Positions 32,523-63,882 are shown, numbered from the stretch's first letter. The stretch: 64,000 bases of DNA from an uncultured Clostridia bacterium (GCA_934121905.1 CAKOVI010000001.1:303700-367699), one strand, 5' to 3'. Program-made: numbers and translations. Notes: generated by a model from the sequence alone, not told the origin.

Positions 32523-32612
32523 GGTGCCGTCCTTTTTTTAGACAGTATCCAAAAAAGGACGGCACCGACGGTACCAAAAGAATAGCCAAAAAAAGGACGG
32601 CACCAACGGTAA
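32523..32612. repeat. Intergenic palindromic repeat cluster (GGTGCCGTCCTTTTTTT ... AAAAAAGGACGGCACC, plus an extra half-site)
   Basis: Perfect inverted repeats visible in the sequence. Member of the GC-rich hairpin family recurring about 15 times from here to the window end. Confidence 0.8.
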
Positions 32613-32681
32613 AAGAAAAAAGTCATAAATTTAAAACCTTCTAATATAATTATAGTAAATTATATTGGGAGGTTAAATTTT

Positions 32682-34265
32682 ATGGAAGTACAAGTAAGCA
32701 AAGAAAATATATGTATAAATAAACTAGTTGCAGAAAAAAAGGAAATAATTTTTGTAAATAGTGATATGATTGTACCTGATTCAAAACCAGATATTTTGAA
32801 CACAATTAACGTTTCAGGAAATGTATGTTTATATAAAAAAGAAGTAGCAGAAGACAAAGTGAAAATAGAAGGATGTATTAATACATATGTAATGTATTTA
32901 CCAGATAGTAAAGATGATAATTTAAGGGCATTAAATTGTAATCTTGATTTTTCTGAAAATATAGCTATTCAAGGTTGCAAAGAAGGAATGATTTTAAATA
33001 CAAAATGTGTAATAAGAGATATTGAATGTAAAGTGATAAATGGTAGAAAAGTTACAATCAAGGCAAGTGTAGAGGTGAACATAAAAGTATATTCAAATGA
33101 GGATGTTGAAATAATAAATAAAATAAATAATATTGATGATATACAAACTCTTCAAGAAAATTTTTGTATAAATTCACTAATAGGAAACGGGAAAACATCT
33201 GTATATGCAAAAGACACTGTTAATATTGATCAAGCTGATGAACTTGCAGAAATTTTAAAAGTTGACATAAATTTAGTGGATAAAGATATAAAAATAAGTT
33301 ATAACAAGGTACTTGCGAAAGCTGAGGCAGAAGTAAAAATAATGTATCTAACAGAAGACAATAGGATTGGAAGAACTGTTGGAAGAATACCAGTTGTAGG
33401 ATTTATTGACATACAAAATATTTCCGAGGACAATATTTGTGATGTTAATTACGAAATTAAAAATATGATATTTAAACCAAATCCAGCAGAAGAACATTCT
33501 ATATATATTGAACTTGAAATTGAAGAAAGTTGTATGGCATTTGAGAAAAAACAAATAAATTTAATCCAAGACCTATATAGTCCAACATGTAATTTAGAAT
33601 TTTCACAAAAGAGAATATCATCTTCGTCTGATAAAAGTGAAGTAACAAAAGATTTTACAATAAAGGACAATATAGAAATTTCTAAAATAACAGAAGGAAG
33701 TTTATTAGATGTTGAAGTTGTACCAAATTTATTAAATACAGAAATAACAAATACTAAAATAACTTATTCTGGAGATTTAAATTTAAATTTCATCTTTACC
33801 AACGAAAGTTCTGTTAATTCAAGAAGTGCAAAAATGCCATTTGAAATTTCAATGGAGAATGAAAGCAGAAGTGATAAAATAAATGTAGAAGCAGATATTT
33901 CTATTCAAAGTACAAATTTTGAGATTCAATCAAATGGAAATGTATCAGGAGAAGTAGAACTTGAAGTTGATGCAAGAACAAATAGAAATGTTAGTATGAA
34001 TATTATAGATAATATTGAATTTTCAAATGATTCAGATACTGGAAAAGATGAGGATTATGATAGTTTGATTTTATATATTGCAAAACCCGGAGATTCTTTA
34101 TGGAAAATTGCAAAAAAATTCAATAGTACAGTTGATGAATTAGCTAGAATGAACGGAATAGAGAATGAAAATGAAATAATCATTGGGCAAAAAATTTATA
34201 TTCCTAAATTCAATTATATAAAGAAAGAAAAGATTGAAAATGCAAGAGAGCAAGTCGTCGTATAA
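32682..34265 (+). CDS. Spore-coat morphogenetic protein, SipL/SpoVID-like (DUF3794-type N-domain plus C-terminal LysM)
   Basis: 527 aa. C-terminal LysM (YIAKPGDSLWKIAKKFNSTVDELARMNGIENENEIIIGQKIYIP). The N-terminal beta-rich DUF3794-like repeats are typical of the SipL/SpoVID family. Confidence 0.6.
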   Translation: MEVQVSKENICINKLVAEKKEIIFVNSDMIVPDSKPDILNTINVSGNVCLYKKEVAEDKVKIEGCINTYVMYLPDSKDDNLRALNCNLDFSENIAIQGCKEGMILNTKCVIRDIECKVINGRKVTIKASVEVNIKVYSNEDVEIINKINNIDDIQTLQENFCINSLIGNGKTSVYAKDTVNIDQADELAEILKVDINLVDKDIKISYNKVLAKAEAEVKIMYLTEDNRIGRTVGRIPVVGFIDIQNISEDNICDVNYEIKNMIFKPNPAEEHSIYIELEIEESCMAFEKKQINLIQDLYSPTCNLEFSQKRISSSSDKSEVTKDFTIKDNIEISKITEGSLLDVEVVPNLLNTEITNTKITYSGDLNLNFIFTNESSVNSRSAKMPFEISMENESRSDKINVEADISIQSTNFEIQSNGNVSGEVELEVDARTNRNVSMNIIDNIEFSNDSDTGKDEDYDSLILYIAKPGDSLWKIAKKFNSTVDELARMNGIENENEIIIGQKIYIPKFNYIKKEKIENAREQVVV

Positions 34266-34945
34266 AATTTACTCGAGAAGTAGATTCAATATTTTTAAAG
34301 GAAATAAAAAAAGAAACTCATGTGGAAAATTTCAAGAAAGTAGAAATAAATCTATATATTTTTGCATAATAATTTTAGTTGCAATTTTCGTATTCAATAT
34401 ATTAGGTAAATCTGTTGCTCCTATTTTTGAAACATTGTGTAAAGAAAAAGCACACGAAATAGCAACAGTTGCAACAAATGAAGAATCAACAAAAGTTATG
34501 GCAAATTATGAATATGGAGATTTATTCAATGTAGAGAAAGATGAAAGTCGGAAATATAAAAATGATTGTTGCAAATATTTTTACAATAAATGAAATCACA
34601 TCAGATATTGCAATAAACATTCAAAAAGCTTTAGACAATTATGAAGATACTAATGTGAAACTTTCATTTGGAAGTTTTACAGGTAGTAAATTACTTTCTA
34701 GTATTGGACCTAATGTTAAGATTGGCTTATCATCTGTTGGAAAAGTTAATACAGATGTTAGAAGTGAATTTGCGGCTCAAGGTATAAATCAAACCATACA
34801 TAGGGTATATTTGCAGATTGATTGTACAGTTAATATTTTGACGCCTTATGAAAGTATAGATACTGATGTTTCTAATCAGGTTTTGTTGATGGAGAATGTG
34901 ATTATTGGAGAGATACCTGCGAATTATTTTAATGTGGAAAAATAA
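34240..34945 (+). CDS. yunB: Sporulation protein YunB, interrupted by a +1 frame change at in-frame CGG (34549-34551). Joins ORFs 34234..34593 and 34541..34945
   Basis: Basic N-terminus plus TM. Conserved YunB region ...ATVATNEESTKVMANYEYGDLFNVEKDES|GNIKMIVANIFTINEITSDIAINIQ continues only in the +1 frame. Confidence 0.6.
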
Positions 34946-34956
34946 TTTTTTGTTAT

Positions 34957-35027
34957 GTTCCATTGGGACCGGGTCTTTTTGGTACATTAATGCTAAATGT
35001 ACCAAAAAGACCCGGTCCCAATGGAAC
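34957..35027. repeat. Perfect 71-nt palindrome of the GGGACCGGGTCTTTTTGGTACAT family
   Basis: GTTCCATTGGGACCGGGTCTTTTTGGTACATTAATGCTAAATGTACCAAAAAGACCCGGTCCCAATGGAAC sits between convergent yunB and deoD. Likely bidirectional terminator. Confidence 0.85.
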
Positions 35028-35031
35028 AAAA

Positions 35032-62542: not shown

Positions 62543-62545
62543 TTT

Positions 62546-62640
62546 TTCATTGGGACCATAGGGGTCGGTTCTTTTTGGTCCCGTTTAATAAAATAATTTT
62601 ACAAAACGGGACCAAAAAGAACCGACCCCTATGGTCCCAG
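62546..62640. repeat. Nested palindrome CATTGGGACCATAGGGGTCGGTTCTTTTTGGTCCCGTTT...AAACGGGACCAAAAAGAACCGACCCCTATGGTCCCAGTG in the mraY-spoVE spacer
   Basis: About 95-nt perfect long-range inverted repeat. Replaces the position where murD is normally found. Confidence 0.85.
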
Positions 62641-62666
62641 TGCGAAAAAAGAAAGGAGAGTAAAAA

Positions 62667-63795
62667 ATGGCAAAGAAAAAGAGCAAGAAATTTTCAAGCT
62701 TCTTAGAGAATCCAATAGACTATACATTATTAATAACGGTACTATTGCTTTTAACAATTGGTTTAATAATGGTATTATCTGCTAGCTCTCCAACATCTTT
62801 ATCTGAGAGTGGAAAAAGTTATAAATATTTTGTAAAGCAGGCAACATTTGCAGGTCTAGGTCTATGTGCTATGGCTATTATATCTAAAATAGATTATAGA
62901 TTTTACAAAAAATTTTATAAGATTGCATATATAATATCAATTATTTTGCTTGCAGCAGTATTAGTTGCAGGAAAAACAGTAAATGGGGCAAAGAGATGGA
63001 TAGGAACAGAAACACTTTCATTTCAGCCATCTGAGCTTGTAAAATTTTGTATGATAATTTTCTATGCAGGAATCTTAACAAGAGATAGAGAAGAATTAAA
63101 ATATTTTGTAAAAGGATGGCTAAAACATTTAGCGTGGCTTGCACCTATTATATTACTTATAATGTTAGAACCACATATGAGTGCATCAATGGTAATTATA
63201 GGAATTGTTGGGATTATGATGATAATTGCAGGATGTAAAATGTGGCAGATGGTAGTTCCAGGATGTGCAATTGGAATACCAGCATTAATTGCACTTATTA
63301 TATTCGAACCATATAGATTAAAAAGGGTAACAACATTTTTAAACCCTTGGAGTGATGCAAGAGGTGATGGTTGGCAAGTAATACAAAGTTTATATGCTAT
63401 AGGTTCTCGGAGGATTGTTTGGAGCAGGCCTTGGTCAGAGTAAACAAAAATATTTGTATTTGCCAGAACCACAAAATGATTTTATATTTTCAGTATTAGC
63501 TGAAGAATTAGGCTTTGTGGGATGTGTATTTGTTATAATTTTATTTGCAATTTTTATTTGGAGGGGAATTTTAATTGCAATGAAAGCACCTGATATGTTT
63601 GGAAGCTTAGTTGCAACAGGTATAACAGCTCTTGTTGGTATACAAGTTATAATAAATATTGCGGTTGTAACATCTTCAATGCCAGCAACAGGTATGCCAC
63701 TTCCATTTTTTAGTTATGGTGGAACGGCGTTGTTTATAATGCTTTGTCAAATGGGCGTACTACTCAATATATCAAGAGCTTGTAGGAAAACATAA
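62667..63795 (+). CDS. spoVE: SEDS-family peptidoglycan glycosyltransferase SpoVE/FtsW, interrupted by a +1 frame change at in-frame CGG (about 63407-63410). Joins ORFs 62667..63443 and 63415..63795
   Basis: Skipping the C of CGG restores the universally conserved SEDS motif ...[35 protein letters not shown].... Position between mraY and murG. Confidence 0.7.
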
Positions 63796-63805
63796 AATTC
63801 AGAAA

Positions 63806-63882
63806 TGTACCATTGGGACCGGGTCTTTTTGGTACATTTTCCAAAAGGAACCGTCCCCAACCCAAAAAAGGACGGTACCAAA
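63806..63882. repeat. Repeat cluster GTACCATTGGGACCGGGTCTTTTTGGTACAT + GGAACCGTCCCCAACCC + AAAAAAGGACGGTACC
   Basis: Family members between spoVE and murG. Confidence 0.8.

What the first reader, a model, noticed from the sequence alone, without database searches (positions are those of the whole stretch)
32523..63882. Dense family of GC-rich palindromic intergenic repeats (core GGGACCGG[G/T]TCTTTTT / GGGGACGGTTCTTTT), about 15 loci in 31 kb, none in the first 32 kb
There are perfect or near-perfect hairpins sharing a conserved core. Several subfamilies exist: CATTGGGACCGGGTCTTTTTGG, TTCGGATTGGGGACGGTTCTTTT, AAAGAACCGGTCCCAATG and GGTGCCGTCCTTTTTTT. They occupy almost every intergenic spacer from the CBS gene onward, often as nested or tandem copies flanked by T/A tracts. 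Stem variants are compensatory, so the palindrome is kept. The conserved loop-proximal sequence and the multi-copy spread suggest a REP/BIME- or MITE-like propagating element, or a shared protein or RNA recognition site, and not independently evolved terminators. The strong asymmetry is unexplained: zero copies in the spo/tad/accessory half, which uses ordinary unrelated terminator hairpins.
Basis: seen in the sequence. Interest (0 to 1): 0.75.

Follow-up and report, generated by a model that had tools for sequence, protein, structure and literature searches.

The report
REP-like hairpin repeats with a transposase
The GC-rich intergenic palindromes are a real, very dense family of short mobile hairpin repeats in an uncultured gut Clostridia genome, and in close relatives the same repeats bracket a single-copy REP-type tyrosine transposase gene that most likely spreads them.

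Summary
There are 29 units (a 15-nt G-rich core plus a T-run, usually preceded by ATT) at 13 loci between 32523 and 63879, and none before (chance expectation about 0.01). They are not ordinary terminators. Units lie inside operons and in the pheS 5' UTR after a T-box, and few meet a terminator consensus. Inverted pairs are always (+,-), which puts the T-runs inside the hairpin. Relatives at 91-97% identity have empty, differently filled or rearranged spacers at the same junctions, so the family turns over quickly. A metagenome scan gave 98 more low-GC loci with 378 units: 12% in long ORFs against 70% ORF coverage, (+,-) 91 to (-,+) 2, and tandem period 31-33 nt. One of those loci, plus eleven further loci carrying homologues of its protein, contain a 255-aa Y1 (HUH) transposase. 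Its best family match is REP-associated tyrosine transposase and its best fold match is E. coli RAYT (4ER8). It is flanked by (+) units upstream and (-) units downstream, and the flanking core matches that genome's dominant repeat. Verdict: a REP/REPIN-like (TIRtron-type) repeat-transposase system in gut Clostridia, a new member of a known kind. The transposase was not found in the 64-kb window itself. The left/right asymmetry is statistically real and only partly explained.

The parts
32510..32617 (.). Three C-type units (cores at 32523+, 32552-, 32590-) between the CBS-domain gene and the SipL/LysM gene. The first two form an inverted (+,-) doublet.
34942..35042 (.). A-type inverted doublet (cores 34965+, 35005-) between the convergent yunB and deoD genes; 47-nt arms, 87% complementary.
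   Evidence: (I7)
35826..35880 (.). Compact B-type inverted doublet (35836+, 35855-) in the divergent deoD/pyrG region. The hairpin has a U-run 5' and an A-run 3'.
37664..37725 (-). Two tandem A2-type units (37671-, 37703-) after pyrG, antisense to the surrounding transcription.
42940..43005 (-). Two tandem A2-type units (42952-, 42983-) between rimP and nusA (intra-operon), with different outer stems (TTTCCCA/TGTGAAA and GGCACA/TGTGCC). In relative L148 the last unit is B2 type with GGGACC stems.
47468..47530 (+). Two tandem A2-type units (47478+, 47509+) directly after the infB stop and before the rbfA RBS. Four relatives have only 17-21 nt here.
47934..48025 (.). A-type inverted doublet (47942+, 48003-) between rbfA and nrnA; 31-nt arms 100% complementary, 30-nt spacer.
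   Evidence: (I15)
53822..53856 (-). Single C-type unit (53832-).
55909..56004 (.). A-type inverted doublet (55918+, 55981-) with a third unit (55947-) inside. It lies in the pheS 5' UTR between the T-box terminator and the pheS RBS, and is absent in L084/L086/L088.
   Evidence: (I16)
57081..57154 (.). One B unit (57090+, GGGGACAG) plus a compact B doublet (57112+, 57131-) between pheS and pheT (intra-operon).
59909..59963 (.). Compact B-type inverted doublet (59919+, 59938-) in the roughly 500-nt gap between pheT and murE.
62543..62647 (.). B2-type inverted doublet (62561+, 62615-), 52-nt arms, -79.5 kcal/mol, between mraY and ftsW. The same unit (GGGACCA..TGGTCCC stems) flanks the transposase gene in L223.
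   Evidence: (I4)
63803..63889 (.). Mixed cluster after ftsW: A (63815+), B (63844-), C (63865-).

Best explanation
The repeats are a REP/REPIN-like family of about 32-nt non-autonomous hairpin elements in an uncultured, spore-forming, 28%-GC gut Clostridia lineage. They are most likely propagated by a single-copy RAYT-type (TIRYT-like) Y1/HUH tyrosine transposase encoded elsewhere in the genome. Each unit has a variable 5-10 bp outer stem enclosing a conserved centre, (A)TT + GGG(G)AC-type G-rich 10-11-mer + T4-6. Units occur singly, as head-to-tail arrays with a 31-33 nt period, or as (+,-) inverted doublets. The doublet has the same arrangement as the two ends that bracket the transposase gene, so it looks like a transposase-less mini-element. 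Shown here: the family is real, extragenic and dense; it turns over between close relatives; and the transposase gene is bracketed by its own genome's repeat variant. Inferred: the enzyme recognises the folded unit in single-stranded DNA, with the conserved centre as the recognition part and the variable stem needed only for folding, and cuts and rejoins it as the E. coli REP transposase and the IS200/IS605 transposases do. Also inferred: copies persist where they are tolerated, because the (+,-) arrangement leaves no U-tract after the hairpin and so does not terminate transcription. Any effect on mRNA stability is untested.
For: The family is real and far above chance. The window-only copy counts are matched by an independent sample of 98 low-GC metagenome loci (718 kb) with 378 units. 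There, 12% of units lie in ORFs of >=150 aa against 70% ORF coverage; neighbouring pairs are (+,-) 91, (-,+) 2 and direct 86; the tandem period is 31-33 nt. The window shows (+,-) 9 and (-,+) 0. Turnover: near-identical strains keep the units, but relatives at 91-97% identity show a 17-21 nt infB-rbfA spacer against 83 nt in the window, no units after the pheS T-box, other core variants at pheS-pheT, and unit replacement at rimP-nusA. Transposase: L127 ORF 6792-7559(-) matches Pfam Y1_Tnp at E = 6e-13 (above cutoff); its best NCBIfam model is REP-associated tyrosine transposase (63 bits, E = 2.6e-17) against 19.9 bits for IS200. The HUH histidines and the Tyr in CRYVHRNP are invariant in 32 homologues. 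The AlphaFold model has pLDDT 85, and its best PDB match is 4ER8, E. coli RAYT bound to a REP hairpin (E = 1.2e-6, TM 0.72), ahead of the IS608/IS200/ISDra2 transposases. The gene is flanked by (+,+) and (-,-) A units in L127. In five further lineages at 95-55% identity it is flanked by (+) units upstream and (-) units downstream whose core equals that locus's dominant repeat: GGACCGGGTC, GGGTCGGTTC, GGGACCGGGTC-T7, GGGACCGGGTA and GGGACCGGTTCTGTTTT. A divergent homologue in L064 has that species' own GGGACGGGG unit upstream. The gene sits at conserved syntenic sites and occurs in only 13 of 221 fetched sequences (2.69 Mb), which fits a single-copy gene. The window unit at 34965 is nearly identical to the unit next to the transposase in L127. 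Outer stems covary and recur together with their cores.
Against: No transposase homologue lies in the 64-kb window, and I could not show that L127/L221 come from the same genome as the window. Only the A, B2 and related cores were seen flanking the gene; the plain B (GGGGACGGTTC) and C (GGTGCCGTCC) cores were not. The NCBIfam score is below the curated 80-bit cutoff. The units lack the GTAG/CGTC tag of classical REPs. No target-site duplication or exact insertion boundary could be defined. Nothing here shows transposition or DNA binding directly. Covariation among copies related by descent can partly reflect subfamily structure.
Confidence: 0.8

Rival explanations
1. The units are primarily host RNA elements, either intrinsic terminators or mRNA-stabilising/processing hairpins, whose shared sequence is kept by selection for a common RNA-binding factor and not by transposition.
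For: Single units fold as two-tier hairpins containing a U-run, and several sit at gene ends such as yunB/deoD. Outer stems covary, as expected for selected structure.
Against: Only about 4 unit loci pass a permissive terminator scan, and overall counts are at chance. Orientation relative to transcription is mixed (12 plus, 17 minus). Doublets place the U-run inside or 5' of the hairpin and an A-run 3', on both strands. Units lie between rimP-nusA, infB-rbfA and pheS-pheT and in the pheS 5' UTR after a T-box. Relatives lack them at the same junctions. There is no Rfam family. The transposase association is unexplained by this view. A secondary, exapted RNA role is not excluded.
Confidence: 0.07
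2. They are MITE-like elements mobilised by some other transposase (for example a DDE enzyme acting on terminal inverted repeats), and the Y1 gene merely sits in repeat-rich spacers.
For: (+,-) doublets resemble two inverted ends. No transposase was seen in the window.
Against: The Y1 gene is bracketed in the same polarity at three or more different genomic sites and in six protein lineages, and the flanking core changes with the genome's dominant repeat. No other transposase recurred near units in 2.69 Mb. No target-site duplications were seen.
Confidence: 0.08
3. They are DNA uptake sequences or binding sites for a chromosomal protein (nucleoid, gyrase or Xer-type), multiplied because the host benefits.
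For: The short core is conserved across species (GGGAC...). Pilus/pseudopilin-like genes are in the window. Inverted pairs resemble Neisseria DUS pairs (my own knowledge).
Against: Units are strongly excluded from coding sequence, whereas uptake sequences are common in genes. Cores differ between sister species and are absent from some, which is poor behaviour for a conserved host-protein site. Copies carry their flanking stems with them. The transposase association also argues against it.
Confidence: 0.03

Closest known systems
REP/REPIN-RAYT systems (REPtrons) of Enterobacteria and Pseudomonas (Nunvar 2010; Bertels & Rainey 2011, PMC3116915; Ton-Hoang 2012; structure 4ER8)
   Same: Short extragenic imperfect palindromes in high copy number. 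They occur as singlets, inverted doublets (REPIN-like) and clusters (BIME-like), with subfamilies within one genome. A single-copy Y1/HUH transposase gene is bracketed by the same repeats in inverted orientation, sits at a conserved syntenic site, and has its best fold match in E. coli RAYT.
   Different: There is no GTAG/CGTC tag. The conserved part is the centre of the hairpin (G-rich core + T-run), while the base of the stem varies. The regular 31-33 nt head-to-tail arrays are unusual. The transposase is about 90 aa longer, with a conserved helical C-terminal extension. The host is a 28%-GC Firmicute. In Bertels 2017 (PMC5581495) only RAYT groups 2 and 3 (Enterobacteria, Pseudomonas) were clearly tied to abundant repeats.
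TIRtrons / TIRYT (Di Nocera et al. 2013, PMC3733652) = TnpA_REP subclass 2.1 (Quentin et al. 2018, PMC6006769)
   Same: A RAYT-like Y1 transposase longer than classical RAYTs, with a C-terminal extension. It is flanked by inverted repeats carrying a G-rich motif (published consensus GGGGWSAS; here GGGGACGG/GGGGTCGG match 7 of 8 and GGGGACAG at 57090 matches 8 of 8). The repeats are organised as dimers or clusters.
   Different: Published TIR families are only moderately abundant and found in few genomes, and no REP-like sequences were found near subclass 2.1 genes. Here the density is about one unit per kb. The A-type core GGGACCGG fits the consensus poorly (5 of 8). A Pfam HTH/DnaA_C domain was not detected in the extension at E <= 0.01. 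I did not place the protein in the published subclass tree.
IS200/IS605 family and their non-autonomous derivatives (PATEs)
   Same: The same HUH/Y1 catalytic fold (IS608/ISDra2/IS200 hits). Hairpin ends are presumably recognised in single-stranded DNA.
   Different: IS200-type genes are multicopy and move with their ends. Here the gene appears single-copy at fixed sites, and only the roughly 32-nt units multiply. The IS200 model scores only 19-20 bits.

Membership tests
REP/REPIN-RAYT system | Short (20-40 nt) imperfect palindromic repeats in high copy number | tested here: met
   29 units in 31 kb; 378 units in 718 kb of other loci; unit period 31-33 nt; hairpin folds.
REP/REPIN-RAYT system | Extragenic location | tested here: met
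   All 29 window units lie in spacers. In the wider sample, 12% lie in ORFs of >=150 aa against 70% coverage; this is an upper bound because it includes spurious ORFs.
REP/REPIN-RAYT system | Inverted doublets with fixed relative orientation, plus clusters | tested here: met
   (+,-) 9 against (-,+) 0 in the window; 91 against 2 in the metagenome sample.
REP/REPIN-RAYT system | Cognate Y1 transposase gene bracketed by the same repeats in inverted orientation | tested here: met
   Met in related contigs L127, L221-L231 and, in part, L064. Not demonstrable for the window's own genome: there is no homologue in the 64 kb.
REP/REPIN-RAYT system | Transposase has HUH and catalytic Tyr motifs and a RAYT fold | tested here: met
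   Pfam Y1_Tnp E = 6e-13; invariant H60/H62/Y119; Foldseek top hit 4ER8, E = 1.2e-6, TM 0.72.
REP/REPIN-RAYT system | Protein passes the curated NCBIfam RAYT model (NF047646, cutoff 80 bits) | tested here: not met
   61-65 bits for four homologues. It is the best-scoring model but below the cutoff, so these are divergent relatives and not equivalogs.
REP/REPIN-RAYT system | GTAG (or CGTC) tetranucleotide tag at one end of the palindrome | tested here: not met
   The three bases before the core are ATT in 251 of 367 units, then AAT or TTT. No GTAG appears in the unit sequences. Classical GTAG-tagged hairpins do occur in other species of the clade (L039, L017, L043).
REP/REPIN-RAYT system | Evidence of mobility (presence/absence differences between related genomes) | tested here: met
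   Actual transposition events were not observed.
TIRtron / TIRYT (subclass 2.1 TnpA_REP) | Flanking inverted repeats carry GGGGWSAS | tested here: inconclusive
   B/B2 cores match 7 of 8, one copy (57090) matches 8 of 8, and A cores match about 5 of 8 (consensus from PMC3733652).
TIRtron / TIRYT (subclass 2.1 TnpA_REP) | C-terminal HTH-type domain (Bac_DnaA_C/HTH_23/HTH_28) | tested here: inconclusive
   A conserved helical extension of about 115 aa with a basic helix QxSRIIRVxRK, but no Pfam HTH hit at E <= 0.01 and no PDB sequence hit.
Intrinsic (Rho-independent) terminators | GC-rich hairpin immediately followed by a U-tract, at the ends of transcription units, in sense orientation | tested here: not met
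   About 4 unit loci pass a permissive scan. Doublets have the U-run 5' and the A-run 3'. Positions include operon interiors and a 5' UTR. Strand use is mixed.
MITE | Terminal inverted repeats plus target-site duplication | tested here: inconclusive
   Doublets have inverted ends, but no duplication is visible at the filled-versus-empty junctions. The relatives are too diverged for exact boundaries.
DNA uptake sequences | Frequent in coding as well as non-coding DNA, with the core conserved across the group | tested here: not met
Any described RNA family (Rfam 15) | Match to a curated covariance model | tested here: not met
   Only generic miRNA-hairpin models match, all far below their gathering scores.

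The most novel reading that the evidence does not exclude
This would be the first clear case in Firmicutes of a hyper-abundant (about one unit per kb) REPIN-like repeat population together with its cognate, vertically inherited, single-copy Y1 transposase. It would show that the long 'TIRYT/subclass 2.1' enzymes, reported to lack REPs, do drive large repeat families. It would also show a different recognition logic: a conserved hairpin centre with a freely covarying stem base, and doublets built so that they cannot terminate transcription in either direction.
Probability: 0.4. Interest if true: 0.6.

Novelty: new member of a known kind. Interest (0 to 1): 0.45.

Why it matters
REP/REPIN-RAYT systems have been studied almost only in Proteobacteria. 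A dense, diversified system in abundant uncultured gut Clostridia widens their known host range. It offers a natural series of sister species with different cores and matched transposases for studying repeat-enzyme co-evolution. It would also account for contig breaks at these loci, since many transposase homologues sit on ~1-kb contigs. Finally, it flags intergenic hairpins inside essential operons (nusA-infB, pheST) that may affect mRNA fate.

Tried and rejected
- **Near-identical strains (L001-L003, 99.6-99.99%):** they gave no indels at the units, so they say nothing about mobility.
- **Rfam:** the gathering and E-value scans found no family for the repeats, only miRNA-type hairpin noise.
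- **Transposase in the window:** Pfam/NCBIfam on the unannotated ORFs and a family-profile hmmsearch found none.
These remembered sequences are not evidence in themselves.
- **PDB by sequence:** neither the single sequence nor the family profile found anything. Only the fold comparison worked.
- **'Core inserted into pre-existing terminator loops' as the source of the variable stems:** rejected, because the same stem-plus-core combinations recur at different loci and next to the transposase, and the empty sites in relatives show no matching hairpin.
- **CRISPR-like array:** rejected. Arrays have only 2-5 units, the 'spacers' are the palindromic flanks, and there are no cas genes.
- **Viral scan:** 10 hits, mostly single matches in mid- or high-GC contigs, consistent with chance.
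- **Automatic ORF set for spacer occupancy:** it over-extended TTG-start ORFs across units, so the curated spacer list was used instead.
- **Linking L127/L221 to the window's genome:** this failed because no fetched region is shared.
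Full report
**Setting.** The window has 26-33% GC with strong purine skew on the + strand. The right half encodes housekeeping genes of a spore-forming Firmicute: a CBS protein, SipL/LysM, yunB, deoD, pyrG, rimP-nusA-ylxR-infB-rbfA-nrnA-truB, spoIIM, xerD, pheS-pheT, murE, mraY and ftsW. The exact PyrG protein occurs in human-gut metagenome contigs that are 99.6-99.99% identical to the window. 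The nearest species-representative genomes are uncultured gut Clostridia MAGs, some named 'Candidatus Scatovivens', with a best PheS identity of 92%.

**Observation.** The motifs are real. There are 17 and 13 matches at <=2 mismatches, against 0.01-0.02 expected. Merging the subfamilies gives 29 units at 13 loci from 32523 to 63879, and none before 32500. A unit is (A)TT + a G-rich 10-11-mer (GGGACCGGGTC, GGGACCGGTTC, GGGGACGGTTC, GGGGTCGGTTC or GGTGCCGTCC) + T4-6, usually enclosed by 5-10 nt flanks that pair with each other but differ between loci. Single units fold as a two-tier hairpin, and inverted pairs fold into 18-47 bp hairpins of -38 to -80 kcal/mol.

Flank complementarity is well above a mismatched-partner control: 45% against 6.8% with at least 5 bp, and 30-34% against 6-8% with at least 6 bp in a larger sample. 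Stem positions 1-5 show 51-80% Watson-Crick pairing against 27-52% shuffled, with 2-4 pair types per position.

**Not ordinary terminators.**
- Units lie between rimP and nusA, infB and rbfA, rbfA and nrnA, and pheS and pheT.
- Three units sit in the pheS 5' UTR, downstream of a T-box leader (55618-55864, E = 4e-16).
- Twelve units are on the + strand and 17 on the - strand, in a region transcribed almost entirely rightwards.
- Every inverted pair is (+,-). The T-runs are therefore inside the hairpin, with a U-run 5' and an A-run 3' on either strand.
- A permissive terminator scan flags only about 4 unit loci, and overall counts are at chance.
- No Rfam family matches.

**Turnover.** Orthologous junctions in relatives differ sharply.
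- **infB-rbfA:** 17-21 nt in L004, L084, L086 and L088, against 83 nt with two units in the window.
- **After the pheS T-box terminator:** L084 and L086 go straight to the RBS, whereas the window has three units.
- **pheS-pheT:** three B units in the window. L084/L086 have one or two units of another core (GGGGACGGAG). L089 has a decayed copy plus an A2 unit. L004 has none.
- **L148 (about 91% nucleotide identity):** the same spacers are occupied but the arrays differ. At rimP-nusA, an A2 unit with GGCAC stems in the window is a B2 unit with GGGACC stems in L148.

Other species of the clade carry their own G-rich centres with the same architecture, or nothing at all. Within the window, identical 25-31 nt stretches occur at different loci. 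Together these results indicate copy-and-paste propagation with rapid gain, loss and replacement.

**Genome-wide behaviour.** About 100 of these are low-GC, mostly human-gut contigs, and they also carry A2, B and B2 units, up to 13 per 11 kb. In 98 such loci (718 kb, 378 units):
- 12% of units lie in ORFs of >=150 aa, which cover 70% of the sequence;
- neighbouring pairs are (+,-) 91, (-,+) 2, (+,+) 47 and (-,-) 39;
- the tandem period is 31-33 nt.

**The transposase.** A screen of the fetched DNA led to L127 ORF 6792-7559(-), 255 aa.
- **Family:** it matches Pfam Y1_Tnp (E = 6e-13). The best NCBIfam model is REP-associated tyrosine transposase (63 bits, under the 80-bit cutoff), against 19.9 bits for IS200.
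- **Catalytic residues:** the HUH histidines and the Tyr in CRYVHRNP are invariant in 32 homologues, and a helical C-terminal extension of about 115 aa is conserved.
- **Fold:** the AlphaFold model has pLDDT 85. Its best PDB match is 4ER8, E. coli RAYT bound to a REP hairpin (E = 1.2e-6, TM 0.72), ahead of the IS608/IS200/ISDra2 transposases.
- **Flanks in L127:** two A units (+,+) on one side and two (-,-) on the other.
- **Homologues:** the family has more than 1000 members in gut metagenomes, many on ~1-kb contigs.
- **Flanks in other lineages:** in five further lineages (95-55% identity) the gene again has (+) units upstream and (-) units downstream. Their core equals the dominant repeat of that locus: GGACCGGGTC, GGGTCGGTTC (with the same GGGACCA/TGGTCCC stems as window 62561/62615), GGGACCGGGTC-T7, GGGACCGGGTA and GGGACCGGTTCTGTTTT.
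- **Divergent homologue in L064:** that species' own GGGACGGGG unit lies 65 nt upstream, and the inverted partner lies beyond groES.
- **Copy number:** the gene occupies conserved syntenic sites and was found in only 13 of 221 fetched sequences (2.69 Mb), never in the window.

**Interpretation.** This is the signature of a REP-RAYT (REPtron/TIRtron) system. A (+,-) doublet has the polarity of the two ends that bracket the gene, which explains the 91:2 orientation rule. The same stem-plus-core combinations recur at several loci and next to the gene. The variable stems therefore reflect diversified subfamilies that keep pairing, not insertion into pre-existing hairpins. How the enzyme recognises and cleaves the unit, and whether units affect mRNA, are inferences.

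**Literature.** Bertels 2017 ties abundant repeats only to RAYT groups 2 and 3, and notes that group 1 occurs in Clostridia with few flanking-16-mer copies. Di Nocera 2013 defines TIRYT/TIRtrons with the GGGGWSAS motif and moderately abundant repeat families in few genomes. Quentin 2018 found no REP-like sequences near the long subclass 2.1 enzymes. The present case fits that kind. It is new in host and density, and its repeat architecture is distinctive.

**Asymmetry.** Occupancy is 0 of 16 spacers on the left against 13 of 22 on the right (Fisher p = 1e-4).
- The left 24 kb is mostly a pilus/pseudopilin-like block, a PD-(D/E)XK transposase-family gene, a GH57 enzyme and other non-core genes.
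- Inside the right half, the blocks of unknown, pilin-like or LRR proteins (38.5-42.5 kb and 49.9-53.8 kb) also lack units.
- Units therefore track conserved housekeeping operons. This would fit later acquisition of the empty blocks, as reported for REPs in Pseudomonas (my own knowledge). That explanation was not tested here.
- The ftsEX-ctpB-prmC segment (25-32 kb) is also empty, but it has only two or three spacers.

Noticed in passing
window 55618-55864 (+): T-box leader upstream of pheS (80.5 bits, below Rfam's gathering score of 93; E = 3.9e-16). Its terminator hairpin is conserved in relatives. In L089/L090 most of the leader is missing and only the terminator-like hairpin remains.
   Followed up: partly
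window 62667-63443 and 63415-63795 (+): ftsW/spoVE is split into two overlapping ORFs (FtsW model residues 1-232, then 232-354). This is a frameshift, a sequencing error or a pseudogene.
   Followed up: no
window 17417-17655, inside ORF 16744-17724 (+): Coding tandem repeat with a 12/24-nt period (KQGIEEGK-like) in the C-terminal part of a PD-(D/E)XK_2 'transposase' family protein.
   Followed up: no
window 10559-13913 (+): Four to five small paralogous ORFs share a conserved N-terminal 40-110 nt (MENASKALI...), pilin/pseudopilin-like, within a Tad-like cluster.
   Followed up: no
window 39757-39923 and 41446-41612: A 167-nt stretch 79% identical at the starts of two unknown ORFs (39744-41102, with a weak N-terminal methylation motif; 41379-42275, with a weak BspA-type LRR). 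They are probably paralogous surface proteins.
   Followed up: no
window 24302-24984: A 684-nt gap holds a tRNA on the minus strand (24424-24497) and a perfect 12/12 sigma-70-like promoter match at 24613-24641.
   Followed up: no
window 59557-60054: A gap of about 500 nt between pheT and murE with no supported ORF (59630-59959(-) has no Pfam hit). Relatives encode an HTH_3 regulator on the minus strand at this position.
   Followed up: partly
L086-L088, about 18084-19522 (-): Reverse transcriptase (RVT_1) next to a bAvd-like gene downstream of pheT in close relatives. This looks like a diversity-generating retroelement and is absent from the window.
   Followed up: no
L039 1582-2190, L017 4634-4919, L043 2248-2290: Other species of the clade carry classical GTAG-tagged REP-like hairpins (GTAGGGGCG-N8-CGCCCCTAC), a different repeat family from the one in the window.
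   Followed up: no
L216 16-63 (IMG/VR contig IMGVR_UViG_3300045988_138308): A 27%-GC 'viral' contig carries an A-type inverted doublet at the start of the fetched stretch (position within the 29.8-kb contig not checked). It could be a host flank of a prophage, or a phage of this lineage that carries the repeat.
   Followed up: no
L090 582-692; L086 3145-3230: At the same junctions, relatives carry unrelated long hairpins: a 107-nt element at infB-rbfA, and AGACATTTCC...GGAAATGTCT with a different 18-nt centre at rbfA-nrnA. Several hairpin-repeat families seem to compete for these spacers.
   Followed up: no
L225 and L230 (whole loci): In these species the units occur almost only as head-to-tail pairs (31-32 nt apart), up to 20 units in 20.8 kb. 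The propagating module may therefore be a tandem dimer there, and not the inverted doublet common in the window.
   Followed up: partly
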